A stretch of DNA of 64,000 nt. Origin: Candidatus Polarisedimenticolaceae bacterium (lineage in GTDB: Bacteria; Acidobacteriota; Polarisedimenticolia; Polarisedimenticolales; Polarisedimenticolaceae). The stretch is taken from positions 61,537 to 125,536 of the forward strand of contig CAWBPP010000007.1 in assembly GCA_963790785.1 (NCBI GenBank), given 5' to 3'. Each line of letters begins with the position of its first letter. The stretch's first letter is position 1. The notes under the pieces were generated by a model. That model had not been told where the DNA came from, ran no database searches, and saw only the letters and a list, made by a program, of their open reading frames with translations. Both the position numbers and the translations under genes were made by a program. This document shows, in pieces, positions 11,524 through 31,402 of this stretch.

Positions 11524-11539
11524 GGCCTCGTTCCACAAT

Positions 11540-12028: not shown

Positions 12029-12890
12029 GCCTCGACCCTGTAAAAGCCGGCCGGGCTGCCGAGGGGGTCGTACGCGGACATAAGCGTCCCGTCGCCCACG
12101 ACACTCTGGAGGAGGGTCCAAGACGACTCGCTGAGGTCCGTCTTGTAGAGCACATCGTAATTCAAACCTACCTGTGTTTCGAACGAAATCTGGACGTCCG
12201 TCTCCGTGCGATAGAGCTGCAGCTCGATCTGCGGGCCGATGCCGCCAAGGGTCGTGAAGCCGTTGTCGTAGATCCTGATCCAGTCCACCCGGTATTCCGC
12301 CGGAAACGGTGCGGTGATCAGGCTGCTGTCTCCGGTGATGCCGGTGTAGTTGCCACCGACGGCCAGGTTCAGGAGGAGGAAGTGCGGCTGGTGGAACTCC
12401 TCGCCGTCGAAGCTCGCCGGGTCCGAGATGTCCATGGTCCAGATCCAGATGCCATCGATGTAGGTGGAAATATAGGTCGGTGTCCATTCCATGCGGTAGA
12501 TGTGGAACGAGTCGTTCAGATCGGTGGCCGACGTGTAGCTCAGTCCGTAGCCGGCGTAGTTGTCCTGAAATTCCCAGTGCGCCGCCGATCCGACACGCCG
12601 GTTGACCACTCCATCTGCGATCGCCGCTGCGCTCCCCATCTCGACGATATCGATCTCACCGCAGTCGGGCCAGCCGACGGTGGAGACGTTGTTTCCCAGC
12701 CGCAGATCCCCTCGGCACAGCCGTCGCCGATGGCGAAGGTCCAAACCGAGTTTTGGAGGGTCGAAACGGAACTGAATTCCTCGCTCCATAACAGCGTCTG
12801 GGCGCTGGACGGTCCGGCCAGGAACAGCGCGACGGCTGCAAGAAGCAAGGTTCGCCCCGGGCCAGGCCGCAGATATTCACATATCTTCAT
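12019..12890 (-). pseudogene. Glycoside hydrolase family 16 (laminarinase-like) gene with ~0.2 kb internal deletion and frame break (copy 1)
   Basis: Signal peptide + AQTLLWSEEFSS... (ORF 12540..12890) and ...VSTVGWPDCGEIDIVEMGS...FYRVEAYE (ORF 12019..12789) are in different frames. Versus the intact paralog 29423..30508, ~70 aa are missing between two CCCAGC direct repeats. Confidence 0.7.
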
Positions 12891-13300
12891 AGTGCCCTTG
12901 AATGTACCGTGATCGCTTGAAAGCTGCCAGCGACCCCTGTTTGCGGTCGGTCTGCCTGATTATCGACGTGAGTTGTGATGAAGGCATGGGGTTCTATTTC
13001 GCCAAACCCACGACGTTCAGGGAGCCCATTTTCAAGGTCGGGCGGGCCGACTACTACGCGGTTGATCATACGCCCACGTATCTTTGGGAAAGCGCGTCGC
13101 GCGCCATCTCCGCCGCCCTGATCGTGCACATACCCTCGGTGGTGGCAGGCCGGGAAAGCTGGCAACAGAACGAGACGATTCGGAGGGCCGTAAACATCGA
13201 CGCCGGCGTCGTGGTGAAACCCGCCATCCTGTCGTTTCAACACCGGCAGCCGAACTATCCGCACGCCTCGTTGTGATCCTGCCGGTTCTGCGCGATTCAC

Positions 13301-13426
13301 CGGACTCTGAGTCCGATACGGGAGTCCGTGGTTGCAAGATTTCTGCGGAATGACTGTGTTTTTCGTGTCCGTAGAGTCCGCTGCAGTTTGGCTGTTTCAT
13401 CCTCGATGTCAATTTTTGGCCACTCC
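13301..13426 (+). repeat. U-repeat copy A (starts with palindrome CGGACTCtGAGTCCG)
   Basis: About 80% identical over ~115 nt to 26846..26964. Shares gagtccg-acgggag-ggttgcaag-tgtgtttttcgt-tccgtagag-atgtca(a/c)tttttgg with copies at 16157 and 24568. Confidence 0.6.
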
Positions 13427-13561
13427 GGAACTGAGGCGGGCCTTACTTCGGCTCGTTAGAAACGCCGGCTATAATTCCTATCCGTTTTCATGCCGGTGGT
13501 GGCGAGTGTGGTGTTGACATATTATCTCTGACCGGACAAAAATCTAAATTCGCAGCTCGAA

Positions 13562-14608
13562 ATGCTTGTCCGCTATGAGGCAGTGACTTTGAATCCGATG
13601 AAATTGCGCCAACTTAGTACCGTTTTAAACTGCCTTATATGGACCTTGCTCCCCTTGATTATTGGTCTGGTAGTTACCGGTTTCGCCATGGGACCGATCT
13701 TCAAGATCCTGCCGCACGACCTGATGCGCGTCAATACCATCCTGCGTGCCCTGGACAACGATAATCACGAACCACAGGGAGTGCTTTTCGGCAATAGCGT
13801 TGCCATGAACGGATTCGACACTCGGCGTCTCGGTGAATTACTTTCTGATGGAGGTGAGATACTAAACCTGAGTTCAACCGGGCAAACGCTTCCCGAGAGT
13901 CTTTTGTATTACCAGGAACTCCCTTCTTCCGTCACACGGATCATCCAGGTCGTCATGCCGATGACACTGGAGAAGCAACAAAAACTCAGAGAAGATACAT
14001 ATAACGCCTTCTATTTTTATGGATACCGCCCAGAAAGTGCGATGTCGGAGATGATACGGGGAAGTGCCGGTGAGGCTGCGTATGAACTGTTGAACCGCTC
14101 TAATATATGGCATCGCTTCCACGGTCGGTGGGTGCTCCGACAATGGATCGATACCGGGGTCAGGAGTTTCCTGCGAACTGACCTGAACCTCGGTCGAGCA
14201 AGGAATGATCTTTATTATCCCGCTCCTTACACCAGGAGAATCCCGCCCCAGAAAACTGCCAGGCTGCTTGAGCTTTGGAAGGAGCCCCGTGAGGATGAAC
14301 GACTCCGGGTGTCGCCTTCCGCACGCAATACACTCCGGATGATGGCGGATTATGCCGCCCGTACCGACCGGGAATTCTACCTGGTGGTGGCGCCGATGCA
14401 CCCGGAACTGCGGGAACACTTCGGCGAGAGATTCTTCCGGGATATCGGTGAATTGCGCAGGTACCTCGGGTTGGTTTCCAGCGACGGCATAATCGATGCA
14501 ACGGCGTTACTGCAGGAGAGCCAGTTCATCGATCACGCCCACCCCACGGCCGAGGGGGCCAGGCTCCTGGAGGCGATGGTCGCTTCCTCAATCGAGGATG
14601 GCGCCTGA
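13562..14608 (+). CDS. Membrane-anchored partner protein of MBOAT acyltransferase (SGNH/DltD-AlgJ-like, tentative)
   Basis: N-terminal TM helix, GVLFGNSVAMNGFD block resembling SGNH block I. Immediately upstream of, and 1-nt overlapping, the MBOAT gene. Lower GC than surroundings. Confidence 0.4.
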   Translation: MLVRYEAVTLNPMKLRQLSTVLNCLIWTLLPLIIGLVVTGFAMGPIFKILPHDLMRVNTILRALDNDNHEPQGVLFGNSVAMNGFDTRRLGELLSDGGEILNLSSTGQTLPESLLYYQELPSSVTRIIQVVMPMTLEKQQKLREDTYNAFYFYGYRPESAMSEMIRGSAGEAAYELLNRSNIWHRFHGRWVLRQWIDTGVRSFLRTDLNLGRARNDLYYPAPYTRRIPPQKTARLLELWKEPREDERLRVSPSARNTLRMMADYAARTDREFYLVVAPMHPELREHFGERFFRDIGELRRYLGLVSSDGIIDATALLQESQFIDHAHPTAEGARLLEAMVASSIEDGA

Positions 14609-16048
14609 TGCTGTTCTATTCTCCGGAGTTCCTGGTATTCTCCCTGGCGCTTCTCGCCTTGCTGGGGCTTATCCACCGCCAGGCGCCAAGAAAAGTTCTT
14701 CTGCTGGTAAGTAGCTACATCTTTTACATGTGGTGGAATCCCGCCTTCATCCTGTTGATCATATTTTCGACTGTAGTCGATTACCTGGTCGGACGCAGGA
14801 TGGCGGTCACCGATCACACGGGGAAAAGAAGGCTGTTGCTGGTGACCAGCCTGGTCGCCAATCTGGGCCTGCTCGGTACCTTCAAGTACGCGGGGTTCTT
14901 TCAGGAAAATCTCCTGGCCGCTCTTAGGCTTCTCGGCACCGAACCTGGCTGGACTTCGTTGCATATCGTTCTTCCAGTAGGAATCTCCTTCTACACTTTC
15001 CAGACCATGAGTTACACCATCGATCTCTACCGGCGGGAGATCGGTGTCTGTCGTTCGCCTCTCGACTTCGCACTGTTTGTGGCGTTCTTTCCACAACTGG
15101 TGGCCGGTCCGATCGTCCGCGCCCGTGATTTTCTTCCTCAACTACTCGAACCAATCAAATTGTATGTGGATCGCAAGACACTCCTCCTGATTCTCAGGGG
15201 ATTGGCCAAGAAGGTCCTTATCGCCGACAACATCGCAGGATTCGCCGATGTCGTGTTCGAGAACCCGGGCAGTTATCCGAGCACGGTTATCTGGTTTGGC
15301 ACCATCTGCTTCACAATACAGGTCTACTGCGACTTCTCGGGGTACTCCGACATAGCCATCGGTGTGGCGCGGATCCTCGGTTTTCGCCTGCCCCTTAACT
15401 TCAACCGGCCCTACTTCGCAAGCAACCCGAACGAATTCTGGAAGAGATGGCACATAAGTCTTTCTACATGGCTGCGGGATTACCTGTACATTCCCCTGGG
15501 CGGGAACAGGGGCGGTACCGTCAAGTTGTACCGCAATCTGATGCTGACAATGCTTCTGGGCGGGTTATGGCACGGTGCCAATTGGAACTACATCCTGTGG
15601 GGTTTTCACCACGGCCTACTGCTCGTAGGGCACCGACTGTGGCGTGGTTTCAGAGTGAAATATTTCGGTGAGAGTAAAGGTTCTCCCGGTCACTTTACGA
15701 CAGTAATCTCCATTCTGTTCACGCAGTATTGCATAATGCTTACCATGATCACCTTCCGAGTCTCCGACCTGAGTCAGACGCTGCCGACGCTTAAGAAGTT
15801 CATCTTCTTCGACTTCGATTTCGGATTGACGAGCATAGGGATCGGGTCGATGTCGCTGTTCAGCACGCATCGTCCTGGTGGCGTTATTCCTGGTCCTGCA
15901 TGTGAACGCCAAGTTCAAAGGTGATTTCGAAACAAGAATGTCCAGGTTGCCGAACCTGGTCTACGCGGTGCCGTTGGTCATAATCGGGATAGCCTTTTTT
16001 ATCCTGTGGCCGATGCAGGAGGCGCCGTTCATATACTTCCAGTTCTGA
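14608..16048 (+). CDS. MBOAT-family O-acyltransferase (AlgI/DltB-like); frame break near 15871-15876
   Basis: MBOAT motifs (FWKRWHISLSTWLRDYLYIPLGG, conserved His in LWHGANWN). The called ORF ends at 15924, but removing one C from tcgtCCtgg restores ...STHRLVALFLVLHVNAKF...PFIYFQF* ending at 16048, a typical AlgI C-terminus. Confidence 0.75.
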
Positions 16049-16065
16049 GTCAAACGCCACTGCTT

Positions 16066-16195
16066 AATGGGCCCGGAAGGACTCCCTCCTCCGCTAACGC
16101 TTCGGAGGGCAGGCGACGCCGAAGGCGCGCGGAGCAACCTGGGACCGACGGATTATGAGTCCGCTTCAGCAGTGCGTGGTTGCAAGGTTTTTAAG
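16066..16195 (-). repeat. Degenerate tRNA-Met 3' fragment carrying a ~51-nt insertion, plus partial U-repeat copy B
   Basis: aacctgggaccgacggattatgagtccg (16136-16163) is identical to the tRNA's internal 3' portion. 16069-16105 resembles 24655-24704. gagtccg...ggttgcaaggttttt follows at 16157. Confidence 0.55.
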
Positions 16196-16340
16196 GAGCA
16201 AGGTTCGCACCGGGCCAAACCGCTGATCTCCAAAGATCGTCGGAATCTTCATCCGCCATGCTCCTGTAGCAGCCGACAGATAGCAACATGGACCCTACAA
16301 GTGTGATCGTCACGAAACGAAGAAAGAACTTCCTTGGGGA

Positions 16341-17117
16341 TCAGCTTTGTGGCGGCCAAGGCAAAAAGGCGCTGGTCCTGCGAGCGTACGCGCCGTATTC
16401 CGGTTTCGTCTCCGACAAGCTTTTCTCCAGCAGGCTGACTCCCGAGACCTTGAGCAGCAGGAAGGTCATCAGGATCGGGCTGGCGATCGTCCATAGCGAG
16501 CCCGGTGCCGAGAGCGCAATCAGGAATAAGCCCCACCAGACAACGGTGTCTCCGAAATAGTTCGGATGCCTGGTGTAGCGCCAGAGCCCGCTCTGCATGA
16601 CTCGGCCGCTGTTGCCCGGGTCGTTCTTGAACCGGGCCAGCTGCAGGTCTCCTACCGTCTCGAACAGGAAGCCGATGGCGAACAGGACGGTGCCGGCCGC
16701 GTCGAGCCAGGTTAATTCGTCAGGTTGGACCGCGTGCTGCGCAACGAGAAGGGGCGCGGAGACGAACCAGAGTATCGATGCCTGGAGCAAAAAGATGGCG
16801 AACAGGCTCCAGAGGGCGAAGTTCCGGGAATGTCTCTTGCGCATGTCCTGATAGCGATAGTCTTCGCCGCGGCCGATGCTTCGCACCAGGATGTGAAGCG
16901 ACAACCTCAGCCCCCAGAGGCTGACCAAGGCGACCGTGAGAACCTTGCGTACGGTCATGGCATCGGAAGTTAAGAAATAGAACCAGGCCACCACCACGAA
17001 GCCGAGTCCCCAGAATATATCGATGATGCCGGCATCACGCCGGACCAGGCTGAGCAGCCAGACCAGCGTCATCATGCAGAGGGCGAGAAGCAGGGCGATG
17101 GCAAATGTCGTCAGCAT
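16341..17117 (-). CDS. DUF1295 family polytopic membrane protein (methyltransferase/5-alpha-reductase-like fold)
   Basis: 258 aa, ~7 TM helices, C-terminal RHPNYFGD motif. Last gene of the co-directional operon that starts at 21430. Confidence 0.6.
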   Translation of the reverse strand: MLTTFAIALLLALCMMTLVWLLSLVRRDAGIIDIFWGLGFVVVAWFYFLTSDAMTVRKVLTVALVSLWGLRLSLHILVRSIGRGEDYRYQDMRKRHSRNFALWSLFAIFLLQASILWFVSAPLLVAQHAVQPDELTWLDAAGTVLFAIGFLFETVGDLQLARFKNDPGNSGRVMQSGLWRYTRHPNYFGDTVVWWGLFLIALSAPGSLWTIASPILMTFLLLKVSGVSLLEKSLSETKPEYGAYARRTSAFLPWPPQS

Positions 17118-17171
17118 GGCAGGTCAGGCTGCCTTCCTTAACAGCAGTTTCTCGATCAGCGTGACTCGCAT

Positions 17172-18182
17172 TCACCGGCTCCTTTCGAACAGGTAATGGC
17201 CGACCATCCACTCCTCGCCGCCGCCGTAGGCGAATAGTTCCTCGCAGGCCATGAAGAACATACGCCAACGACGGATCCAGCGACTGGCCCGGGACGCCCC
17301 GTAGACCGAGCGGAATATTTCCAGGATGTGGTCATGCCGGGTGTCGAACAGATCCAGCCAAGCCCGTAGGGTTTTGGCGTAGTGGTTGCCGTTGACCTGC
17401 CAGCGATGCGTGACAGAGAGATCTTCCGTAAAGCGATCGAACAGATCCCAAGAGGGCATCATGCCGCCGGTGAAGAAATATCTCGCCATCCAGTCGTCAT
17501 CGCCGTCGATCTCGAAGAAATAGGGGATCGCTCGATGGCAGAAGATGTGAACAAACAGCTTGCCCTCCGGGCTCAGCCAGGAAGCGATTTTTTTAAGCAG
17601 CAGCCGATAGTTCCGCATGTGCTCGATCATCTCCACCGAGACGACGCGATCGAAGCGCTGGTCGGTGTCGAATTCGTTAATGTCCGCCGTCAGGACCTCT
17701 ATGCCGGCGAGTCCCCGCCTCTCGGCCTCCGCCTCGATGAACTCTTTCTGGGAGGATGAGTTCGATATGGCGGTTATCCTGCAATCCCTGTACATCTCGG
17801 CGACCCAGAGCGTCGTGGAGCCCCAGCCGCAGCCGAGATCGAGAACCTTCATGCCGTTTTCGATCCCGGCCCGCCTGCAGGTCAGCCGGAGCATCGACTC
17901 TTCGGCTGCGTCGAGATCCTGGACGCCCTGTTCCCAGAGGCAGCTGCTGTACTTGAGCCTCGGTCCCAGGACCCGCTTGAAGAAACCGGCCGGGAGCTCG
18001 TAGTGTTGCGCATTGGCCAGGTCGGTCCCGAGCGCGAGTGGGCTCTCGAGCATCTTCGGAACCAGGTCGGCCGCGACACCGCTCTCCTTCCGCAGACGTC
18101 CACGCAGCAGTCCGCGGATCCCCAAGCGGACCATGAAGTCGGGGAGGAGGCCCCGTTCGGCGGTCTCGGCACTCCAGTTCAT
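17172..18182 (-). CDS. Cyclopropane-fatty-acyl-phospholipid synthase family SAM-dependent methyltransferase (paralog 1)
   Basis: SAM motif VLDLGCGWGS; CMAS-family C-terminus HYAKTLRAW...FMACEELFAYGG. Confidence 0.85.
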   Translation of the reverse strand: MNWSAETAERGLLPDFMVRLGIRGLLRGRLRKESGVAADLVPKMLESPLALGTDLANAQHYELPAGFFKRVLGPRLKYSSCLWEQGVQDLDAAEESMLRLTCRRAGIENGMKVLDLGCGWGSTTLWVAEMYRDCRITAISNSSSQKEFIEAEAERRGLAGIEVLTADINEFDTDQRFDRVVSVEMIEHMRNYRLLLKKIASWLSPEGKLFVHIFCHRAIPYFFEIDGDDDWMARYFFTGGMMPSWDLFDRFTEDLSVTHRWQVNGNHYAKTLRAWLDLFDTRHDHILEIFRSVYGASRASRWIRRWRMFFMACEELFAYGGGEEWMVGHYLFERSR

Positions 18183-18183
18183 T

Positions 18184-19386
18184 TCAGATCCTCAACGGCT
18201 TGGCCAGCAGCAGCTGGGCATTGTCGACCGTGCGTTCGAGAAAACCGCCTTCGCAGTAGCAGAGGTAGAACTCCCACATCCTGATGAAGCGGTCGTCGTA
18301 CCCGAGCCGGCGTATCCGATCCAGCCTGTCGAAGAAATTTCGGCGCCAGTGCCGGAGTGTAGTGGCGTAATGGGGGCCGATCTCCTGCAGGTCGGCCACC
18401 TTCATGTCGGTCACCCGTCCGAGCGAATCGCGCATTGCGGAGACCGAGGGCAGGAAGCCGCCCGGGAATATATAACGCTGAATGAAATCGACCGAGCGCC
18501 GGTAGCTTTCGTACAGGCGGTCGGCTATTACGATCGCCTGCAGCAGCATCACTCCGTCCGGTTCCAGCAGCTCGCTGCAGGTCCGGAAATAGTGATCGAG
18601 ATAGCGCTCACCCACCGCCTCGATCATTTCTATGGATACCACCTTCCTGAAGCGCCGGTTCAGGCGCTTAGGCAGATCGCGGTAATCCTCGAGCAGGACG
18701 GTGATCCTGTTCGCCAGACCGGCCTGGCGGATCCGCTCCATCGCCATCTTGCGCTGCTCGCCGGAGATGGTCGTTGTTGTGACCCGGCAGCCGAAGTTGC
18801 GTGCTGCATGAATCGCAAGGCCGCCCCAGCCGGTACCGATCTCCAGTAGCTCGTCCTCCGGGCAAAGTTCCAGCTTGCGACAGACCAGATCGATTTTGTG
18901 ACGGGAAGCCTCTTCCAGAGGGCTGCTTTCACACGGAAAGATGGCGCAGGAGTACATCATCGCAGGATCGAGGAATGTTTCGAACAGTTCGTTGCCGAGA
19001 TCGTAGTGGCGGGCGATGTTTCTGCGGCTTCCGAGGCGGGTGTTGCTCCTGCTCCAGTGCAGGAATTTCCGCAATGGTGCGGTCAGCCGCGCCGTGCCCT
19101 TCTCCATGCCCTGGTTGAGCTCCTGGTTGCAGGCGATTATGCGGACCACGCTGGTGAGATCATCGCTGCTCCAGAGGCCGTCCATGTAGGCCTCCCCCGC
19201 TCCGACGGAACCTCCCAGAACGACGTCGGCGTAAAAGGCCGGGTCATGCACCTTGATGGTTGCGGTCAGCGGGCAGCGGTCGGTGGGAGAGCCGAAGGAT
19301 TCTCTGCGGCCGCCATCCTCCAGCACGATGCGACCGTGTTGCATTGCTCTCAAGCCACGGCGAAACAGGCTGTGCATCGGGTTCAT
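18184..19386 (-). CDS. Cyclopropane-fatty-acyl-phospholipid synthase family methyltransferase (paralog 2; UfaM/Cfa-like)
   Basis: [25 protein letters not shown] motif and ...[10 protein letters not shown]...[16 protein letters not shown] tail. Start ATG 19386-19384 overlaps the upstream gene's stop (ATGA). The ORF-track extension to 19932 is off-frame text. Confidence 0.85.
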
Positions 19387-20162
19387 GATCCGCTCCCGGC
19401 GGTGGTCCCCGGATGCGGCTGGAATGGCACTTTCTTGAGCCAGAGCCTGACCGCCTGATAGTAGATCGCCAGGAAGACCTGCAGCGTCATGAGGGGATAA
19501 AGGAAGAGAACGCTTGCCAGGGAGCCGCCGTTGATCTCTCTCCGTTCCAGGTTGAGGGTGGCGTCGAAATGCTTTTGGCCGGTCCGCCGGTTCTCGATGT
19601 GTGCCGTCAGCCGCTTCCCCGGCGGCGTCAGCGCGAAGGAATACTCGAAATCCATTTCCATGAATGGTGAAACATGGAAGCTTTTGGGCCGGCGGCAACG
19701 GAGGCTCGCGCCTTCCTTCCGGGGCTCGAAATCGGCCAGGACGTAGCAGTATCGTTCGTTCCAGGGGGTGTTGTGCACCTCGGCCACGATCGCTTCCACC
19801 CTCAAGCCGGAGCGATCGAAGCAGTAGAAGAAACTGACCGGGTTGATGCAGATACCGAAGTACCTGAGGTGGGTGAGAACCCTGATCGGGCCCTCCGGCC
19901 GCTTGCCGGTCCGCTCTTCCACCAGATTGCACACCGTGTTCTGGAGGGAAACGGCGGGATCGCCGAAATGGTCTTTTCTACGGAACCAGGCCAGCGCCGG
20001 CCGGCGCGCCGACCAGAACCACCTCTTCCTGAACAGCTCACCCAGCTCTTCAAGATCGAGGTACATCATGAAAAGCGGATAACGGAAGGCATGCCGGACC
20101 GGTGCGATGCGGTGGTGCCGTACGTGGCCTCGGTAGATGGCGCTGTCTCTCTCGCGCATCAT
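19383..20162 (-). CDS. DUF1365 family protein (UfaO-like)
   Basis: 259 aa, [31 protein letters not shown]-terminus characteristic of DUF1365. Start/stop coupled to both flanking genes. Confidence 0.8.
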
Positions 20163-21430
20163 TCCAGCCCGCAGCCGAAATGGCGGCCGACCCTGAGTGC
20201 GCTGACGACCCCATCCTCGTGAAAACCGTTGCGCCAGTAGGCACCGCAGTAATGGGTCCGGTTGACACCGCTGATCTCGCCATGCCTCTCCTGCGCCTCC
20301 AGCGATTCCGGGGTGAAGAGCGGATGCGAGTACTCCATCCGGCGGATCACCTGCGATGGATCGACTGCGCCGTTCTCGTTCAGGCTGACGCAGACGGGAC
20401 TTTCCGTGCCGAGGTTCTGCAGCCGGGACATGTCGTAGGTCAATGTGACCCGGTCCGCTTTCATGGCCGGTATCCTGTAGTTCCAGCTGGCCCGCGCCCT
20501 GCGATTGACGGGGAGCATGAACCCGTCCGTGTGCAGCACCGCGTCATTCTTCTGATACGGGATGACCGCAAGAAGCCGCCTCTCGCTCTCGGTCGGATCG
20601 GCCAGGAGCTTCAGCGCCTGGTCACTGTGCGTACCGATGACGACTTCGTCATACAGCTCCGGTGCCCCATCGGCAGGAATGAGCTCGACGCCGCCGGGCA
20701 GCCGCCTGACCGAGCGGACCGGGGTCGAGGTCCGGATGCGCTCCCGGAAAGATCGGACCAGCGGCTCGACATATCGTTGCGAGCCGCCGCTGATCACGCG
20801 CCATTGCAGGTGGCCGATCATTCCGAGCAAGCCGTGGTTCCGGAAGAAGCGGATGAAGAAATGGGCCGGAAAGTCCAGCGTCCGCTCCGGTCCGGCCGAC
20901 CAGATCGCGGCAGCCATCGGCACGATGTAATACTCGACGAATCCTCTGCCGTAGCGCTGCGCCTGGAGGAACTCGCCCAGGGTGGGGGCCATGACGCCCT
21001 GATCCAGCAGAATGGGCGCTTCCTTGTTGAACCGGACGATGTCCCGCAGCATCCGGTAGAAGGCGGGGCGAACCAGGTTGCGCCTCTGGGCGAACAGTGT
21101 GTTGAGGGAGGTTCCGCAGTACTCCAGGCCGGTCCGTTCGCAAGAGACGCCGAAGCTCATACTGGTCGTCTCGCTGTCGACGCCCAGTTGATCGAGCAGC
21201 TTGACGAAATTGGGGTAGGTGACCTCGTTGTAGACCACAAAACCGGTGTCCACATCCAGCTCCCGACCCTCTAGCTCGATGCCGGTCGTGCTGGCGTGGC
21301 CACCGACCCGGTCGGCCGCCTCGAACAGCGTGATGTCATGCGCCTGTTGGAGCAGATAGGCAGAGACAAGCCCTGAGATTCCTCCCCCGATGATCGCTAT
21401 GTTGGAACGTTTGCCGCGCCCGCGTCCCAT
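20159..21430 (-). CDS. FAD-dependent amine-oxidase-like oxidoreductase (UfaD-like desaturase family)
   Basis: [25 protein letters not shown] Rossmann GxGxxG at the chosen start (ATG 21430). amino_oxidase-like length. Confidence 0.8.
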
Positions 21431-21482
21431 TTCTGCTCCAAATGATAGAAATATATAGTGCTTGTTCGTTTCTATGCCTGCG

Positions 21483-21511
21483 ATGATAAAGTATGGGGCG
21501 CATCGTGTCAA
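21483..21511 (-). promoter_or_regulatory. Putative sigma70-type promoter of the lipid-modification operon (TTGACA-N17-TATCAT)
   Basis: On the minus strand: TTGACA at 21511-21506, TATCAT at 21488-21483, 17-nt spacer, ~45 nt upstream of the start codon. A TAGAAA-N17-TTTCTA inverted repeat lies at ~21443-21472. Confidence 0.3.
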
Positions 21512-21633
21512 TGTTTTGTATACTACATGTTATGGACAAATGTCACTTTCCGGCGAACGGCCGACTTCATAGGGTTTATTCGATTATGCAGGAACTCTCT
21601 TTAAACAGGAGCATAACGTTCCGGCCGGCGCGG

Positions 21634-22740
21634 ATGTTCGTTCTCCTTGCGCATCTCCTCATGGTGCTGGGGGCGGCAGGAGGACAGGTCCGCGCCGCGG
21701 ATATCACCGTCAACCTCGATCAGGCGCCACAGGGAGGAGAAGTCGTCTTGCTGCTGTTCGACTCGGCCAATGCGTTCGGCGACTTTCGGGACCCTGTGAG
21801 GTCCGAGCCGTTTGCGGCCGACGGCCGGACGAGCTTCACGCTGGGTGAGGTCCCGGCCGGGGACTACGCACTGCTGGTGCATCACGACGCCAACGGCAAC
21901 GGCATCATCGACAAGAACTTCATCGGTATCCCGACCGAGCCGATCGCGTTTTCCAACGGATACCGCCCGAAAGGGCCACCGAGTTATCAGCGCGCGCGGT
22001 TCACGGTCGGTCCGACCGAAGACGTGGAGATCGATCTGGAGCTTTTTCAGGCACTGGGCAGGCGGGGACAGGTCGGTGTGGGGCTTGGAGCGATCGGTCG
22101 CAGCAGCCCGTACCGGGACTATAGTGGCGGCGTTTATCAGGTGATCCCGGCGATCACCTACAACGGCGACCGCCTCCAGCTTTTCGGCCCCAACCTCCAG
22201 GTCGGTATCGTGGGCAGCGGCATGCTGCGGCTGGCCGGGACCCTCTCCTACCGGATCGGGGTGTACGAGGAGTCGGACAGCCCCTTTCTCGCCGGCTTGG
22301 GTGACCGCAAGAGCGCGATCATGGTCGGCCTTGCGATGGAGGCCGAACTGCCGCAAGGCATCGATCTTTCCCTGGGATACGAACACGACATCTTCAACCG
22401 GATCGGCGGAGGCGGCGCCAAGCTGAGCCTCGACAAGGCGTTCTCCCTGGGGATCTTCAGGATCACACCGGAAGTCGGAGTGAACTGGCTATCCTCCGAA
22501 CTCTCGAACCACGACTTCGGCATCCCGCCGGCAGCAGCAACCCTTGAGCGACCCGCTTACGAACTGGACGATACCGTCAGTTTCGAGGTCGGCCTGTCCT
22601 CGCTCATCGAGATCTCTCGCGATTGGCTCATTGTCCTGAACCTCGCGGTGGAACAATTCGACGATGAGGTCAAGAACAGCCCGATCATGGTCGATAATCA
22701 GGTCGTCAAGGGTTTCTGCGGTCTGAACTACGTCTTCTGA
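21634..22740 (+). CDS. Fusion of DUF2141 domain and MipA/OmpV-family outer-membrane protein
   Basis: Signal peptide MFVLLAHLLMVLGAAGGQVRA, then DUF2141-like AGDYALLVHHDANGNGIIDKNFIGIPTEPIAFSNG, then ~250 aa resembling MipA/OmpV. Alternative start ATG 21586. Confidence 0.55.
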   Translation: MFVLLAHLLMVLGAAGGQVRAADITVNLDQAPQGGEVVLLLFDSANAFGDFRDPVRSEPFAADGRTSFTLGEVPAGDYALLVHHDANGNGIIDKNFIGIPTEPIAFSNGYRPKGPPSYQRARFTVGPTEDVEIDLELFQALGRRGQVGVGLGAIGRSSPYRDYSGGVYQVIPAITYNGDRLQLFGPNLQVGIVGSGMLRLAGTLSYRIGVYEESDSPFLAGLGDRKSAIMVGLAMEAELPQGIDLSLGYEHDIFNRIGGGGAKLSLDKAFSLGIFRITPEVGVNWLSSELSNHDFGIPPAAATLERPAYELDDTVSFEVGLSSLIEISRDWLIVLNLAVEQFDDEVKNSPIMVDNQVVKGFCGLNYVF

Positions 22741-22749
22741 TGTCTCCTG

Positions 22750-22888
22750 AACCGACGGAGAAGAGATGAAGGCGGCGGGTGTCGCCCTGATCGTCGACGA
22801 GGCGACTTATCGGGGCATTATTCAGCGGATCACGGCCCAGGGCTACGATCCTAACGACCTGGTCCGAACCGTTCAGGACAACCGCTAG
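22750..22888 (+). pseudogene. Remnant of a blc lipocalin paralog (5'-truncated, internal deletion)
   Basis: Encodes EEMKAAGVALIVDE|ATYRGIIQRITAQGYDPNDLVRTVQDNR*. This matches blc residues ...EEMKAVGVARIVD and ATYRGILERIEAQGYDPNDLVRTAHDNL* with the middle ~55 aa missing. Confidence 0.7.
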
Positions 22889-23301
22889 CTTCCGATCCCC
22901 AGCCAACGGCCGATGCCATACCCGGCGCTGGAGACGAGCGCCGACAGGCAGCTGCCCCAGATCATGTCCACCACGACCACCACCACCGGGAAATTCTTGA
23001 ACAGCGCGAGGCAGGTCAGGTCGAAAGCGGCGTAAGCCACAAACCCCATGAAGGCTCCGAGGGTTATGGCTTGCCACAACGATCCGGCCGACAAGCCGGG
23101 CTGAACCGCGAACACCAGTAGTCCGGCGATGAAGATGAGATAGAAAAGGATCGCCGGCACCCATCGCACTTGCCCGGCAAGCAGGTGACCGAGATGACGA
23201 TTGTAAAATTCGACGGCGACGACGCCAAGCCAGACGAGGTCGATCACGAAGAAAACGATCGCCGTCAACAGATAGAGCTTCAGGAAGTCGGTCACGCCCA
23301 T
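22885..23301 (-). CDS. DUF2177-like small membrane protein
   Basis: 138 aa, four hydrophobic helices. Assignment from memory of the family, not computed. Confidence 0.5.
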   Translation of the reverse strand: MGVTDFLKLYLLTAIVFFVIDLVWLGVVAVEFYNRHLGHLLAGQVRWVPAILFYLIFIAGLLVFAVQPGLSAGSLWQAITLGAFMGFVAYAAFDLTCLALFKNFPVVVVVVDMIWGSCLSALVSSAGYGIGRWLGIGS

Positions 23302-23451
23302 GGTCTCCTCCCGGTTACTGCCGCCCTTACCCTATCGCGATTTTTTGCTGACGGCCATGAGAATGATCTGCCCCCTTACAGGCCCAGCAAGAGAGGCAGG
23401 TCAACCCGAAGCCTTCGCCGTCGTGCTCGCGATCGGGCTCTTTGTACCCTT

Positions 23452-24480
23452 TCATGTCGTCGCGTCCTCCAAAAACCGTCGCGCCAGCTCACGGCCCGAC
23501 CGCCAGGCGGCCTGCATGCCCCCGCCGGGAGAGAAGCTTTCGCCGGCGAGACCCAACCGTCTCCCGCCGGACAGAGCGATCATCCTCGGGCCGGCCAGTT
23601 CCCCCCCGCTTGCGACCCGCGCAAAGCGCCAGCGATGGGTTTGAACCGTCTCCGGCTTTGCAGCCCAGGAACCGGCCACCTTGCTCACTTCCCCGAGCAT
23701 GGCGGCGGACCATTCGGTCTCGGGCCGCTCCCACTGCCCGTGCGACCAGGCCGGCAACGCCTGCAGCACCAGGACGGTGCGATCGGTTTGCTCACGCTTG
23801 CTGGAGTCGTGACTGATTCCTTGGATGACATCCGAATCCGCGGGGAACGACATATCCCAGTCGGGCGCCGGACCGTTCTTCGGGTAGAGCGCGATCACGG
23901 TCAGCGAGGAAACGAAGCCGGTCTCGCGGAGCAGCAAGCGCAGGGACTCGAACTCGCTGGACTCGTCCCGGCAGGAATTCAGCAACTCCAGGGCCTGAGG
24001 CGTGGGGATGCTCAGCACGAGATCGCGGGCCGTCAATTCCTGCCCCACCTCGTTCACGATTCGCCAACGTTCGGCCGTGGAGCCGACGGAGACCACACGC
24101 GAGTTCAGTCGCACGTCGAGACCGGCGGCAAGCCACTTCGGAAACACCGTCAAGCCCTTCGTGTAGGTTAGACGCCAATCCCCGTCGCGAAAGGCGCTCG
24201 GCTGAAAGGGAGTTCCCGTCCCGCGGATGCGTCGGGGCCATCCGGCGATGATGTCGTCACCGGCGGCGGATTCCAGCGATGCCAACAACGCCGCGTCACT
24301 GCCGTGGAAGAAGGTCAGCCCATGATCGACCACGCAACCATCTACACGGCGTGTTGCACAGCGCCCACCGACCCCGCGGCTCTTCTCGAGCACGATGACG
24401 CGCAGGCCCGCCTCGACAAGTTGCCGGGCGCAGGTCAGACCGGCGATACCTGCGCCCACGACGAGAACATCGGCATACAT
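23452..24480 (-). CDS. Renalase-like NAD(P)/FAD-dependent oxidoreductase (COG3380 type)
   Basis: [21 protein letters not shown]...[11 protein letters not shown] dinucleotide-binding N-terminus. 342 aa. Confidence 0.7.
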
Positions 24481-24567
24481 GTGACCTGTCCCCTATTAAC
24501 CGGTCCAGCGTGTGAGTTAGGATAGCGCGCTTCGAACTTGAGAGTAGGTGGTGTTCAAATCAAAGTG

Positions 24568-24704
24568 GTCACTTTTTGGACACTTTTTGAATTCGGACAG
24601 ACTTCCTACAGCGTAGCAGTGATCTGTAAGGATAGTCGCTGCAACGACTTCGAATGGTGGGCCCACCAGGACTCCCTCCTCCGCTGACGCTTCGGAGGGC
24701 AGGC
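24568..24704 (-). repeat. Distal U-repeat fragment + 20-nt copy of tRNA-Met 3' end + GC hairpin
   Basis: gtcactttttggacactttt (24568-24587) is identical to 26945-26964. TGGTGGGCCCACCAGGACTC (24655-24674) equals tRNA 31326-31345. ccctcctccgctgacgcttcggaggg hairpin is shared with 16084-16109. Confidence 0.6.
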
Positions 24705-24917
24705 CCTACCCTGCATCACCTCCTCTGTGCAGGGACACGGCCTTTGCTGCGGCGGAAATCGAACCCGATCACGCCTTTGTCGAGATCCTTTTTGGCGAGT
24801 TGGCGCGCTAAACTGGATGCTCACAAAGCCGCGGGAAGGCAGGGTTCAGCAAGCGACCTTGGGTTCCGCGAACACTTTGTCCTCCGAGCGCATCTATACG
24901 GACAGGAGGAAGCGATT

Positions 24918-25505
24918 GTGAAACTGCAGGAGAGCTGGCTGATCTGGCGGCTGCAAAGTGGGGACCGGGAGGCATCCCGGGAGCTGATCCGGACCCACCA
25001 TCAGGCCGTCTACAGCTATCTCCGGCGGTTGTGCTCCGATGCGGCGCTGGCGGAGGACCTGACCCAGGAGACCTACACCCGGGCCTGGTCCGCCGTGAGT
25101 GGGCTGCGGCGAGTGGTTTCGCTGCGAGCCTGGCTGCTCACGATCGCAAGAAACCAGTTTCTCCAGCGCGTGCGCAGGCGCAGAGTGCAGGAGACCCCGA
25201 TTGACTACGCTCCCGATCCTATCGATCCGGCGCCAAGCGCTCTGGCGGCCGCGGCGGACGCAGAGCGCGACGCCCGGCTCCACGACGCGGTGGACCGGCT
25301 CGAGTCCGGATTGCGTGAGACCGTGGCACTGCACTACTTCCAGGAGCTGAGCCTCCGGGAGGTCGGTTCTGTGCTCGGACTGCCCACGGGGACCGTCAAG
25401 TCGAGGTTGAACCGCGCCCTCCGTTCCCTGCGATGTGTGCTGAATCAAAAGGAGGCGAATCATGAAAGACCGACGGCTCGAAAAGAAACTGCGGGCGGCA
25501 TCTGA
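24918..25505 (+). CDS. ECF (group 4) sigma-70 factor
   Basis: Region 2 (RELIRTHHQAVYSYLRRL...DLTQETY) and region 4 (YFQELSLREVGSVLGLPTGTVKSRL). GTG start assumed. The track ORF 24654..25505 has a non-coding-looking extension. Confidence 0.85.
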   Translation: MKLQESWLIWRLQSGDREASRELIRTHHQAVYSYLRRLCSDAALAEDLTQETYTRAWSAVSGLRRVVSLRAWLLTIARNQFLQRVRRRRVQETPIDYAPDPIDPAPSALAAAADAERDARLHDAVDRLESGLRETVALHYFQELSLREVGSVLGLPTGTVKSRLNRALRSLRCVLNQKEANHERPTARKETAGGI

Positions 25506-26637
25506 TCGACCCGCACCGGCGGATCTTCAGCGGCGCCTCGATGCGGCGATCCCAGAATCCTTCGGACGCCCGAGGACCGTGCGGATCGCGGAGGGAATCT
25601 TTGCCATGACCAAATGGGGAATGATCGTTGCGGCGCCCACGGTGCTCGCTATGTGGCTGGTGGGCAGCATCATCTTGGGTCCGACTGCCCCCGTCGCCTT
25701 CGCCGGGGTTCTGGAACCGGTAGTCGCAGGAACGTCCGATGCGGCCCTGGTGCACTACATCCTTCACAGGCTGACCCGCGAGGGAGAGGACTTCTCCTTC
25801 GTTGAACTCGACGGCCCGGGTTTGACCGTGGAAGTGTGGGTCGAAGCGCCCCAACCCACAGGCGAGCCCGCGCGCTACCGCATGGGCAAATCCGACCGCG
25901 TCATCGCCTACGACGGGCAGCAGACGGTGCTGCATATGACGAAAATGAACGATGCTTACCGCTACGAGGGCGTCAACACGCGCGGCGCCGCACTATGGCC
26001 GGCGGGCTGGATCCGCGAGCTGCGCGAGCATCCCGGAGACGACGTGAAACAGCTGCTCTATGAAGAGGCGGAAGGCGAGGCTCGCCTCGTCTACAGCGAA
26101 TCAGGTGTGGACACCTCGCCGCTGCCAAAGGCGTTTCTCGGAGACTACGACCGGGAAACCGAGCTGCGGTGGTCACTGGACACCCATGCCATGACCGGCC
26201 TGAAGACCTGGGTCCTCATCGGCGGAAAGCGCGTGCTTTACTCCGAGCTGCTCGCTATCGAGTATCTGCCTCCGGCAAAACCGGAATCGTTCCAAATCGT
26301 GCTGCCGGACGATGTGCGCTTCGGCGGCGTGAAGGAGGGCACCGCCGAGGAAAACGCTTTGGGACCGGTGGATGTGGCCCGGGGCCTGTTCGAGGCGGCC
26401 CGGTGGAAGGACCAGCACTTCCTGGAGACCTACGTCCCGTCGCCGGCCACCGTTGACTGGGCGATGCAGGCACCGGAATTCGAGATCCTCTACATCGGCG
26501 AGCCGTTCCGGACCGGAGGCTACGCCGGTGTGTACGTGCCCTACAAGATCCGGATCGATGGAAAGATCAAGGAACGGCAGCTCGCGCTGCGAAACGACAA
26601 TCCTGAGCGTCGCTGGGTGTTCGACGGCGGGATCTGA
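25462..26637 (+). CDS. Membrane-anchored anti-sigma factor (single TM; no ZAS/ChrR motif)
   Basis: MKDRRLEKKLRAASDRPAPADLQRRL N-terminus typical of anti-sigma N-domains. TM MIVAAPTVLAMWLVGSIILG. Overlaps the sigma gene. Confidence 0.55.
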   Translation: MKDRRLEKKLRAASDRPAPADLQRRLDAAIPESFGRPRTVRIAEGIFAMTKWGMIVAAPTVLAMWLVGSIILGPTAPVAFAGVLEPVVAGTSDAALVHYILHRLTREGEDFSFVELDGPGLTVEVWVEAPQPTGEPARYRMGKSDRVIAYDGQQTVLHMTKMNDAYRYEGVNTRGAALWPAGWIRELREHPGDDVKQLLYEEAEGEARLVYSESGVDTSPLPKAFLGDYDRETELRWSLDTHAMTGLKTWVLIGGKRVLYSELLAIEYLPPAKPESFQIVLPDDVRFGGVKEGTAEENALGPVDVARGLFEAARWKDQHFLETYVPSPATVDWAMQAPEFEILYIGEPFRTGGYAGVYVPYKIRIDGKIKERQLALRNDNPERRWVFDGGI

Positions 26638-26644
26638 TACCCAA

Positions 26645-26676
26645 CCGGGGGGCAGGCATTCTCCTGCCCCCCGATT
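26645..26676 (+). terminator. Putative terminator after anti-sigma gene
   Basis: GGGGGGCAGG-cattctc-CTGCCCCCC hairpin. Weak T tract. Confidence 0.4.
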
Positions 26677-26803
26677 CCTTGATAGCACCGTATCTGCGCC
26701 TCCAGGAATCGACTCTTTCGCATACCCTCAAGACCCTCCCTTTATGAGATATCCTCACTATAAGCGGGCCAGGATAGTGGGAACACGTCACAATCACATA
26801 GCT

Positions 26804-26852
26804 TGGTGGGCCCACCAGGACTCGAACCTGGGACCGACGGATTATGAGTCCG
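26804..26852 (-). repeat. Exact 49-nt copy of the tRNA-Met 3' end (att-like site)
   Basis: TGGTGGGCCCACCAGGACTCGAACCTGGGACCGACGGATTATGAGTCCG is identical to 31326-31374. Confidence 0.85.
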
Positions 26853-26964
26853 AAACGGGAGAACGGGGTTGCAAGGTTTTTGCTGAATGATTGTGTTTTT
26901 CGTATCCGTAGAGCCCGTTGAAGTGTGACTTCTCCATCCTCAATGTCACTTTTTGGACACTTTT
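26846..26964 (+). repeat. U-repeat copy C
   Basis: gagtccgaaacgggagaacggggttgcaagg...tgtgtttttcgtatccgtagag...atgtcactttttggacactttt. See copy A. Confidence 0.6.
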
Positions 26965-27045
26965 CAGGGATGACGGTCCGGTCCGCAGGAACGGCCCGCA
27001 GAGAAAGGTTCAACACCAACTTCAACCGACGCGGAGTCCACTGCA

Positions 27046-28110
27046 TTACTTTTGCCTGTTCTTCATGACTGATTTGATCATCTTCCCAAAACTCCTGTCC
27101 TGCTTTCTCTTTTCCAAATATGACATTTGGTTGAATTCCGATTCTTTTTTCATCTTCAGGTAATTTTGATAGCGTTGTTCGGACAGATCCCCTGTATTTA
27201 TAGCCGCCAGTATTTCACAGCCTTTTTCATTGGTGTGAGAACAGTCACTGAACCTGCATCTCTGGGCATAGTCCAGTATTTCCGAGAAAGTTTCATCCAG
27301 GCCGTCATCTGCCGACATGGTTCCAAGCTCTCTCATTCCCGGAGTATCTATTATCATTGCCCCGCTTTCCAACCGAACCAGGTGACGGCTTGCTGTAGTA
27401 TGTCGGCCTTTGCTTTGAATTTTACTTACAGGCTGCGTTTCAAACTTTTCCTCGCCCAATATGCAATTGAGCAAGGTAGTCTTGCCAACACCAGATGATC
27501 CCAACAGGCAATATGTAGAGCCACTCTGCAATGACCCGATAATCGAATCGATATTCTCTCGGTTCAGATTGCTGAACTCCATCACGGCGGTATGAGGAGC
27601 GATATCCAGCACACTTTTTTTAATGTCCGCAACTTCTTCCTTGGAAATCAGGTCGCTCTTACTCAGCAGGACCATCGGTTCGATGCCACTTTCATGGACC
27701 ATAACCAGATAGCGCTCCAATCTTCGCAGGTTGAAATTGTCATTCAAAGATTGAAGAATGAAGGCAACGTCAATGTTTGCGGCTATCAACTGGAAATCAA
27801 CCAGCTTGCCGGCTGTTTTTCTTTTTAGAAGCGTTTTTCTGGGGAAGACACCATAGATAATTGCGTGGGTGTCATCGTCATAATAATCTGCATATACCCA
27901 GTCACCGGCAGTGGGAAGTTCACTGGCAGACGCGATACAATAAAGAAGGTTTCCAGACAATTCGGCAAATATCTCCTTCGTTCCTTGCGTCACGGTGTAG
28001 CTGTCTTTATGCACAGAAACTACCCGTGCAACTCCATGAGCGGCAATCTGTTCATCGTCCGCTCGACTCTTGAACCAGTCGCTGTACCCTATGCTTTCCA
28101 AATTGCTCAT
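27046..28110 (-). CDS. rsgA: Ribosome small-subunit-dependent GTPase RsgA/YjeQ, in a markedly AT-rich segment
   Basis: OB-fold N-terminus, permuted GTPase (SKSDL, GSSGVGKTTLLN, DTPG), C-terminal Zn finger CRFSDCSHTNEKGC. Local GC is far below the window norm (23 G+C in 60 nt at 27061-27120). Confidence 0.85.
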   Translation of the reverse strand: MSNLESIGYSDWFKSRADDEQIAAHGVARVVSVHKDSYTVTQGTKEIFAELSGNLLYCIASASELPTAGDWVYADYYDDDTHAIIYGVFPRKTLLKRKTAGKLVDFQLIAANIDVAFILQSLNDNFNLRRLERYLVMVHESGIEPMVLLSKSDLISKEEVADIKKSVLDIAPHTAVMEFSNLNRENIDSIIGSLQSGSTYCLLGSSGVGKTTLLNCILGEEKFETQPVSKIQSKGRHTTASRHLVRLESGAMIIDTPGMRELGTMSADDGLDETFSEILDYAQRCRFSDCSHTNEKGCEILAAINTGDLSEQRYQNYLKMKKESEFNQMSYLEKRKQDRSFGKMIKSVMKNRQK

Positions 28111-28156
28111 GATGCACTCTAGGTCTCTTGCACCTGACGGGGTTGGACACGCCAGC

Positions 28157-28729: not shown

Positions 28730-28911
28730 TATGGTTCAAGCCTGTCAAATCTGTCTTTGGTTATCTCCGCTTTCACCTTTCCCGTGTGAGCAATGCCTGC
28801 GGGCTCAAACAGCATCAGCTTGACATGCCCCCTAGGAACTACACGATGTTCTACACCACTCTGAACGATGTAAAACTCCCCTTTCGCGCGCACCTGATCA
28901 GTGTACTCCAT
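28729..28911 (-). CDS. Small cupin-like protein (possibly truncated)
   Basis: 60 aa. EFYIVQSGVEHRVVPRGHVKLMLFEPAG resembles cupin motif 2 (PxGxxH). Weak. Confidence 0.3.
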   Translation of the reverse strand: MEYTDQVRAKGEFYIVQSGVEHRVVPRGHVKLMLFEPAGIAHTGKVKAEITKDRFDRLEP

Positions 28912-31325: not shown

Positions 31326-31402
31326 TGGTGGGCCCACCAGGACTCGAACCTGGGACCGACGGATTATGAGTCCGTTGCTCTAACCAACTGAGCTATAGGC
31401 CC
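31326..31402 (-). tRNA. tRNA-Met (anticodon CAT; tRNA-Ile2/lysidine type not excluded)
   Basis: Reverse complement GGGCCTATAGCTCAGTTGGTTAGAGCAACGGACTCATAATCCGTCGGTCCCAGGTTCGAGTCCTGGTGGGCCCACCA folds as a cloverleaf (7-bp acceptor, T-arm CCAGG/TTCGAGT/CCTGG, anticodon loop CTCATAA, encoded CCA). Confidence 0.85.

What the first reader, a model, noticed from the sequence alone, without database searches (positions are those of the whole stretch)
13301..26964. Novel ~120-nt dispersed 'U' repeat family that co-occurs with the tRNA fragments
Four copies (13301-13426 full; 16157-16195 partial; 24568-24587 distal part only; 26846-26964 full) share gagtccg-acgggag-N5-ggttgcaag-N-ttt-N-tgc-N-gaatga-N-tgtgtttttcgt-N-tccgtagag ... 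atgtca(a/c)tttttgg(a/c)cac at about 80% identity. Copy A begins with the perfect palindrome CGGACTC-t-GAGTCCG. Copies B and C begin exactly where the tRNA-derived sequence ends (GAGTCCG is the last heptamer of the 49-nt tRNA block). The MBOAT island (13.4-16.1 kb) is bracketed by copies A and B as direct repeats. This looks like the arm of an attachment site or the end of a small non-autonomous element rather than a promoter, but a structured sRNA is not excluded.
Basis: seen in the sequence. Interest (0 to 1): 0.55.

Follow-up and report, generated by a model that had tools for sequence, protein, structure and literature searches.

The report
Island-end repeat beside tRNA-Met fragments
The ~112-nt "U" repeat is real, but it is most likely leftover end sequence of foreign DNA islands that inserted one after another into a single tRNA-Met gene, which is a common and well-understood kind of genomic scar.

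Summary
There are two full copies of a ~112-nt sequence (13316-13426 and 26853-26964, 82% identical, no indels), one 5' stub (16164-16195) and one 20-nt 3' stub (24568-24587). All lie on the + strand within 13.7 kb, downstream of the window's only tRNA gene, tRNA-Met(CAT) at 31326-31402 on the minus strand.

Wherever U's proximal end survives, it starts at the same tRNA position, the 5' edge of the anticodon stem. It replaces the tRNA 5' half. This is the expected anatomy of the junction far from the intact tRNA when elements integrate into a tRNA gene, so U is element-side flank (attachment-site arm).

- The adjoining tRNA pieces are 49/49 and 28/28 identical to the gene, while the U copies differ by 18%. 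That argues against a simple old duplication.
- Cargo next to U differs between copies and is foreign: a Gammaproteobacteria-like RsgA at 45-50% GC, and an MBOAT module whose 92%-identical relative lacks U.
- I found no signal for coding, RNA structure, a promoter or a MITE.
- U was not found in the genome, metagenome, viral, phage or plasmid collections searched.

The main weakness is that the 64-kb window encodes no recombinase, so the islands are decayed or mobilised in trans. Best description: a decayed tandem island array at a tRNA hot spot. Ordinary; low interest.

The parts
31326..31402 (-). Intact tRNA-Met(CAT) gene and integration hot spot. Its 3' 49 nt (31326-31374, anticodon stem to CCA) is the repeated core.
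   Evidence: ARAGORN; Rfam RF00005, 75 bits. The Band7-tRNA-Met synteny and the tRNA upstream sequence are shared with relative L008.
26804..26852 (-). 49-nt fragment of the tRNA-Met 3' part, 49/49 identical to the gene (core copy C).
   Evidence: D5.
26853..26964 (+). U copy C (full). It starts where the tRNA 5' half would be.
   Evidence: D3, 12, 13, 49.
13301..13315 (-). Degenerate tRNA anticodon stem-loop remnant (cggactctgagtccg against cggattatgagtccg, 13/15).
13316..13426 (+). U copy A (full), 82% identical to C.
16136..16163 (-). 28-nt tRNA-Met fragment (T-loop to anticodon stem), 28/28 identical to the gene (core copy B).
   Evidence: D4/D5, 39, 75.
16164..16195 (+). U copy B, first ~30 nt only. 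It is joined to a GH16 N-terminal gene fragment (16193-16241) at a CAAGGTT microhomology, consistent with an internal deletion of a C-like island.
   Evidence: D4/D6, 39, 49, 77.
16068..16135 (-). Rest of tRNA fragment B: acceptor/T-stem remnant (16068-16084) separated from 16136-16163 by a 51-nt GC-rich hairpin insert in the T-loop (16085-16135).
   Evidence: D16, 73. The same architecture occurs in L008.
24568..24587 (+). U copy D: the distal 20 nt only, identical to 26945-26964.
   Evidence: marginal on its own.
24655..24704 (-). tRNA 3'-terminal 20 nt (24655-24674, 20/20) followed by the same GC-rich hairpin as at 16085-16114. Its left flank (24623-24654) is 80% conserved in relative L015.

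Best explanation
U is the element-side flank (attachment-site arm) of integrative elements that target the tRNA-Met(CAT) gene at the anticodon stem-loop.

When such an element integrates, the intact tRNA is rebuilt at one end. The other end carries a tRNA 3' fragment joined to element DNA in place of the tRNA 5' half. That element DNA is U.

Several related elements, or one element followed by accretion or duplication, piled up downstream of the tRNA. They then lost their recombination genes and suffered deletions. What remains is core+U junctions A, B and C and the stub D.

- Shown: the repeat itself, its fixed junction with the tRNA, its fixed orientation, its sharp distal boundary, the different foreign cargo beyond it, and the absence of RNA, coding or promoter signals.
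- Inferred: that U once carried (or still carries) binding sites for an integrase and DNA-bending proteins, and that a recombinase encoded elsewhere, or since lost, made the junctions.
For: 1. The junction is at the same tRNA nucleotide in B and C, with a degenerate remnant in A. All four copies share one orientation.

2. The 49-nt block runs from the 5' side of the anticodon stem to CCA. From my own knowledge (Williams 2002, NAR 30:866), this matches the anticodon-loop class of tRNA integration sites.

3. The tRNA pieces are 49/49 and 28/28 identical to the gene, while U A versus C is only 82% identical. At 18% divergence the chance of 0 changes in 77 nt is about 2e-7. So the cores are younger than, or maintained separately from, the U copies. 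This is expected if diverged elements each recombined with the tRNA.

4. Cargo differs and is foreign.
- The RsgA gene beside U-C lies in a 45-50% GC patch of a 58-66% GC genome. It is 80-87% identical to proteins that, where a source names them, come from Gammaproteobacteria. The host's Band7 protein resembles proteins named from Thermoanaerobaculia and Gemmatimonadales MAGs.
- The gene beside U-A has a 92.4%-identical relative, contig L015. Its homology starts 27 nt beyond U-A's end and it has no U.

5. U is therefore a discrete module with a shared distal end in A, C and D.

6. The same tRNA-Met locus in relative L008 also carries integrase-less DNA bounded by tRNA-Met fragments. Those fragments differ from L008's own tRNA in the T-stem.

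7. Tandem islands at Dehalococcoides ssrA show the same thing: a conserved motif next to each direct repeat that does not align with the target gene, and many islands without an integration module (PMC3146451).
Against: - No tyrosine or serine recombinase was found anywhere in the 64-kb window. Pfam, NCBIfam and PHROGs were run on the larger ORFs, and no unassigned gap in the 10-31 kb array is long enough for an intact one.
- U has no clear set of repeated arm-type motifs conserved in both copies. The only one is GAGTCCG / GAG(T/C)CCG, 65 nt apart.
- No intact element carrying U was found in any collection.
- The island between U-C and the tRNA contains genes with native-like GC (OsmC, GH16, SLT).
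- The equal divergence of U (82%) and of the OsmC-GH16 paralogues (80-85%) would also fit one duplication of a larger unit.
Confidence: 0.6

Rival explanations
1. In-situ segmental or tandem duplication. A single ancestral core+U junction, together with the OsmC-GH16 module, was copied by unequal crossing-over between tRNA-core repeats and then diverged. The U copies are passive passengers with no present function. This rival concerns how the copies multiplied. It still allows U to have begun as element-end DNA.
For: - U (82%) and the OsmC-GH16 paralogues (11529-12934 versus 28933-30552, 80-85.5%) are about equally diverged.
- GH16 occurs three times in register with the array.
- No recombinase is present in the window.
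Against: - The tRNA cores next to B and C are 100% identical to the gene over 77 nt, while U differs by 18%. This would need gene conversion of very short tracts.
- Cargo between junctions is unrelated from unit to unit: MBOAT, the cyclopropane-fatty-acid cluster, and RsgA.
Confidence: 0.25
2. U encodes a small structured RNA or a cis-regulatory leader, on either strand.
For: - An RNAalifold consensus on the + strand keeps all 35 predicted pairs, two of them with changes on both sides.
- On the minus strand U would be followed by a tRNA-like 3' end.
Against: - Single-sequence folding z-scores are -0.97, +1.54, +0.02 and -0.27.
- Consensus energies fall inside the null made by placing the same number of substitutions at random (103/400, 198/400, 51/400 and 86/400 null alignments fold as well or better).
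- No Rfam hit.
- No promoter-like or terminator-like site falls within U-A or U-C.
- Neighbouring genes have opposite orientations in A and C.
- B and D are truncated at different ends.
Confidence: 0.05
3. U is a REP or MITE-like selfish repeat that happens to lie near tRNA fragments.
For: Short length, non-coding, sharp ends.
Against: - Only four copies in 64 kb, all within 13.7 kb and all in one orientation.
- Every copy that keeps its proximal end is fused to the same tRNA position.
- The internal inverted-repeat scan found nothing conserved in both copies, and I saw no terminal inverted repeats or target-site duplication on inspection of the ends.
- No copies in the 32.7 kb of core chromosome to the right, or in any collection searched.
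Confidence: 0.04

Closest known systems
Tandem genomic islands and cis-mobilizable elements (CIMEs) formed by site-specific accretion at the 3' end of tRNA genes (ICESt1/ICESt3-type elements; reviewed in PMC5704250)
   Same: An array of segments, each bounded by a direct repeat of the tRNA 3' part. The segments lack integration genes but keep att-flanking sequence. There is unrelated cargo per segment and signs of decay and deletion.
   Different: - No functional partner element or integrase is visible here.
- Excision and mobilisation are untested.
- The host is an uncultivated lineage known only from a MAG.
- The conserved flank is seen on only one side of the core.
Dehalococcoides ssrA-specific tandem genomic islands (PMC3146451)
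   Same: Multiple tandem islands downstream of one small-RNA gene. [quoted passage not shown] About half of those islands have no integration module.
   Different: - The target there is tmRNA, with a T-loop crossover, a 20-bp repeat and a serine recombinase (DsiB).
- Here the target is tRNA-Met with a 49-nt block starting at the anticodon stem, a ~112-nt conserved flank and no recombinase identified.
attP arms of tRNA-integrating phages and islands with anticodon-loop crossover (own knowledge: Williams 2002, NAR 30:866; lambda-type heterobivalent integrases)
   Same: An identity block from the anticodon stem to the 3' end, with about 100 bp of element-specific DNA beside the core on the tRNA-5' side. 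This is the length scale of a P arm.
   Different: Arm-type repeats, IHF or Xis sites and the integrase itself are not demonstrable here.

Membership tests
Attachment-site junction of a tRNA-integrating element (element-side arm) | Direct repeat of the tRNA 3' part at the far end of the inserted DNA, with non-tRNA sequence replacing the tRNA 5' half | tested here: met
   49/49 (26804-26852) and 28/28 (16136-16163) identity to 31326-31374. U follows in place of the 5' half.
Attachment-site junction of a tRNA-integrating element (element-side arm) | Inserted DNA is foreign or variable relative to related genomes | tested here: met
   - 45-50% GC patch containing a Gammaproteobacteria-like RsgA.
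- The hyp348 module is 92% identical in L015 in a different context.
- Relative L008 has different DNA downstream of the orthologous tRNA.
Attachment-site junction of a tRNA-integrating element (element-side arm) | A site-specific recombinase encoded in or next to the element | tested here: not met
   No Phage_integrase, resolvase or other recombinase family hit in any ORF scanned across the 64-kb window. One encoded elsewhere in the genome cannot be excluded.
Attachment-site junction of a tRNA-integrating element (element-side arm) | Repeated arm-type recombinase-binding motifs in the flank | tested here: inconclusive
   Only GAGTCCG / GAG(T/C)CCG, 65 nt apart, recurs in both copies. With two full copies there is little power.
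Attachment-site junction of a tRNA-integrating element (element-side arm) | Excision or integration activity (circular form, empty site) | not testable with these tools
   Needs reads or experiments.
Cis-mobilizable element (CIME) array | Segments that keep both att sites but have lost integration and transfer genes | tested here: met
   Segments 13316-16163 and 26853-31325 are bounded by tRNA-core copies and encode no recombination or transfer genes.
Cis-mobilizable element (CIME) array | Mobilisation in cis by an adjacent functional element | not testable with these tools
   No functional element lies in the window, and the source contig outside the window was not retrievable.
Structured small RNA | Folding more stable than shuffles, and substitutions that preserve pairing more than chance | tested here: not met
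   z-scores -0.97 to +1.54. Consensus energies are within the null, 51-198 of 400 null alignments folding as well or better. No Rfam hit.
MITE / REP repeat | Many dispersed copies, terminal inverted repeats or palindromic units, target-site duplication | tested here: not met
   - Four copies at one locus, all in one orientation.
- No inverted motif within U conserved in both copies.
- None in the collections searched.

The most novel reading that the evidence does not exclude
The core+U junctions are still active recombination sites. They would define integrase-less gene cassettes (MBOAT pair, cyclopropane-fatty-acid cluster, RsgA-OsmC-GH16) that a tRNA-Met-specific recombinase encoded elsewhere captures and shuffles in trans. 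The result would be an integron-like cassette array anchored on a tRNA gene about 31 kb from dnaA in an uncultivated lineage.
Probability: 0.08. Interest if true: 0.55.

Novelty: new member of a known kind. Interest (0 to 1): 0.2.

Why it matters
U and the tRNA fragments mark the borders of horizontally acquired segments. This helps annotate about 18 kb of this MAG as a decayed island array, and it flags the tRNA-Met gene as an integration hot spot shared with at least one related lineage. The mechanism is the familiar one of tRNA-targeted integration and accretion, so this does not change any general picture. The only open point of wider interest is what made the junctions, given that neither this locus nor the related one encodes a recombinase.

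Tried and rejected
**Searches for U elsewhere**
- blastn against phages and plasmids matched only the tRNA part.
- The pattern GGTTGCAAG-N14-18-TGTGTTTTTCG gave 4 hits in GTDB genomes (the two GC-rich ones read and unrelated; about 5 expected by chance), 1 chance hit in JGI metagenomes and none in IMG/VR.
- Three further U patterns found nothing in IMG/VR.
- These scans need exact matches to conserved blocks, so copies diverged by more than about 10% would be missed.

**Source genome**
- The 181,993-nt source contig could not be retrieved, so a genome-wide copy count was impossible.

**Neighbours of homologous proteins**
- Band7 relatives: only L008 keeps the tRNA, and its island arm shows no significant similarity to U.
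- RsgA relative at 87% identity: no U and no tRNA nearby.
- hyp348 relative L015: no U.

**Other readings tested and rejected**
- Coding: mismatches fall 6/9/7 over the three codon positions, transitions to transversions are 11:11, and most frames have a stop in at least one copy.
- Promoter or terminator: none found within U.
- RNA structure: not supported.
- I first thought the gene left of U-A was an SLT paralogue, and that GH16-SLT-core-U was the repeated unit. This was wrong: 12902-13276 is an alanine dehydrogenase/PNT C-terminal fragment, and paralogy with the 28.9-30.6 kb region stops at 12934.
- I also considered that the shared TGCAACC between U and the tRNA's own upstream region meant homology. 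A 7-mer match at these lengths is at chance level.
Full report
**What is there**

The window has one tRNA gene, tRNA-Met(CAT), at 31326-31402 on the minus strand. From its sequence it may be a tRNA-Ile2-type CAU tRNA; that is my own reading and was not tested.

Its 3' 49 nt run from the 5' side of the anticodon stem to CCA. They recur as follows:
- 49/49 identical at 26804-26852;
- 28/28 identical at 16136-16163;
- as a 13/15 degenerate anticodon stem-loop at 13301-13315;
- the last 20 nt alone recur at 24655-24674.

- full copies at 13316-13426 (A) and 26853-26964 (C), 82% identical over 124 nt without indels when the tRNA remnant is included;
- a stub of about 30 nt at 16164-16195 (B);
- the last 20 nt of C, repeated exactly, at 24568-24587 (D).

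A profile built from A and C finds nothing else in the window or in 14 fetched loci. All copies are on the + strand. Two refinements apply. The 'perfect palindrome' that opens copy A is the decayed tRNA anticodon stem-loop. And 'dispersed family' is too strong for two full and two partial copies at one locus.

**Surroundings**

To the right of the tRNA lies core chromosome: Band7/slipin, GntR, then rpoD, dnaG, gyrA, gyrB, recF, dnaN and dnaA.

To the left lies a mosaic:
- SLT transglycosylase, GH16, OsmC, a 190-aa unknown and an RsgA GTPase (27.0-31.3 kb);
- an ECF sigma factor and an unknown gene (24.7-26.6 kb);
- a cyclopropane-fatty-acid-type cluster (16.3-24.5 kb);
- an unknown gene plus an MBOAT acyltransferase (13.6-15.9 kb);
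- a second, partly broken OsmC-GH16 pair that is 80-85% identical to the first (11.5-12.9 kb), followed by a truncated alanine-dehydrogenase/PNT fragment.

A 49-nt piece of the GH16 N-terminal region is fused to U-B at a CAAGGTT microhomology. So B looks like a C-type segment that lost its interior.

GC falls to 45-50% at 27-29 kb, against 58-66% elsewhere. The RsgA there is 80-87% identical to a large family of proteins. Where a source names them, they come from Gammaproteobacteria. The host's Band7 protein is closest to proteins named from Thermoanaerobaculia and Gemmatimonadales MAGs.

**What U is not**

- Not coding. The 22 differences fall 6/9/7 over the three codon positions, transitions equal transversions, and most frames have a stop in at least one copy.
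- Not supported as an RNA. Folding z-scores are -0.97, +1.54, +0.02 and -0.27. RNAalifold consensus energies for A+C are matched or beaten by 51 to 198 of 400 null alignments that carry the same number of randomly placed substitutions. There is no Rfam hit.
- No sigma-70-like promoter or intrinsic terminator falls within U.
- The neighbouring genes point in opposite directions in A and C.
- It has none of the marks of a MITE or REP.

**What U most likely is**

The tRNA is on the minus strand. An element that recombines with the tRNA's 3' part therefore ends up to its left. The intact tRNA is at the right junction. At the left junction a tRNA 3' fragment is joined to element DNA where the tRNA 5' half would have been. 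U occupies exactly that position in all three junctions that are not the gene itself.

The block of identity, from anticodon stem to CCA, is the form expected for elements that cross over in the anticodon loop (my own knowledge: Williams 2002).

Three further points support an element-end module rather than passenger DNA.

1. The tRNA pieces beside B and C are identical to the gene over 77 nt, while the U copies differ by 18%. At that divergence the chance of no change in 77 nt is about 2e-7. So the cores were made or renewed separately from the divergence of U, as when diverged elements each recombine with the tRNA.
2. U has a sharp distal end shared by A, C and D, with unrelated cargo beyond it. 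Contig L015 from another sample is 92.4% identical to window 13453-14428. This homology starts 27 nt past U-A, and L015 has no U. The nearest RsgA relative (87%) also has no U and no tRNA nearby.
3. The orthologous Band7-tRNA-Met locus in relative L008 (79% Band7 identity) also carries integrase-less DNA bounded by tRNA-Met fragments. The T-stem of those fragments differs from L008's own tRNA, so this tRNA is a recurrent target.

**Weak points**

- No recombinase is encoded anywhere in the window. No unassigned gap in the 10-31 kb array could hold an intact one.
- The only internal motif kept in both copies is a second GAGTCCG-like heptamer 65 nt into U.
- No intact U-bearing element was found in phage, plasmid, viral, GTDB-genome or JGI-metagenome collections.
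- Those scans need exact matches to conserved blocks, and the source contig outside the window could not be fetched. Absence elsewhere is therefore only weakly established.
- The similar divergence of U and of the OsmC-GH16 paralogues leaves room for one duplication of a larger unit. I rate that rival at 0.25. It changes how the copies multiplied, not what U originally was.

**Comparison with known systems**

The closest descriptions are two.
- Tandem arrays formed by site-specific accretion, in which decayed, integrase-less cis-mobilizable elements keep their att sites (PMC5704250).
- The tandem ssrA islands of Dehalococcoides. There a conserved motif beside each direct repeat fails to align with the target gene, and 15 islands lack an integration module (PMC3146451).

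This locus works like those. Membership of an active CIME array cannot be claimed because mobilisation and a recombinase are not shown.

**Verdict**

A real repeat, best read as relic island-end sequence at a tRNA-Met integration hot spot. It is a new example of a known kind and of low general interest. Confidence in the main reading is 0.6.

Noticed in passing
window 16068-16163 and 24655-24704; L008 1712-1766 and 4873-4961: A second kind of tRNA-Met junction. The T-loop of the tRNA fragment is split (AGGTT | 47-51 nt GC-rich double hairpin | GAGTCCTGGTGGGCCCA). The 30-nt hairpin CCTCCTCCGCT(A/G)ACGCTTCGGAGGGCAGGC occurs twice in the window with 0 expected by chance. A related hairpin and related inserts occur in relative L008. 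This could be the arm of a second, T-loop-targeting element family, or a small hairpin insertion element.
   Followed up: partly
L008 1582-5079 (GCA_024712245.1, JANIFF010002698.1): In a relative, the orthologous Band7-tRNA-Met locus has a serine/threonine kinase gene bounded by the tRNA and three tRNA-Met fragments. The T-stem of the fragments (CCAGG/CCTGG) matches the window's tRNA rather than L008's own (GGAGG/CCTCC). The flank before one fragment has direct repeats ACTCTACGCAA x2 and CCCTGGACA x2. No integrase is present there either.
   Followed up: partly
window 27046-28110 (minus strand) and 27000-29000: The RsgA-type GTPase lies in a 45-50% GC patch. It is 80-87% identical to a very large, tightly conserved 354-aa family that, where a source names it, comes from Gammaproteobacteria. 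This looks like a recent inter-phylum transfer of what is normally a housekeeping ribosome-biogenesis gene.
   Followed up: partly
window 11212-12934 vs 22751-22888 and 28933-30552; 12902-13276: A mosaic of paralogous pieces: a lipocalin 3' end copied at 22751-22888 (83-88%), an OsmC+GH16 pair duplicated at 80-85% with the left GH16 copy shortened (256-aa ORF against 425 aa), and a 5'-truncated alanine dehydrogenase/PNT gene fragment ending 24 nt before copy A.
   Followed up: partly
L015 1-75 vs window 24623-24683: The 32 nt to the left of the tRNA 3' fragment at site D (containing a GTCG...CGAC hairpin) are conserved at 80% in a contig from another sample. There they sit about 450 nt upstream of the hyp348 module. 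That contig starts too late to show whether a U stub precedes it.
   Followed up: no
window 37718-37828 and 49005-49147: A 55-nt tandem direct repeat (93%) rich in GGGACAGTCCCC palindromes at 37.7 kb. Also a 143-nt region at 49.0 kb that matches its own reverse complement at 78%. Both lie in intergenic DNA of the core chromosome part.
   Followed up: no
window 60894-64000: dnaA-dnaN-recF-gyrB-gyrA lie on the minus strand, with dnaA starting at 62297. The replication origin is probably just right of 62.3 kb, so the tRNA-Met island array lies about 31 kb from the origin.
   Followed up: no
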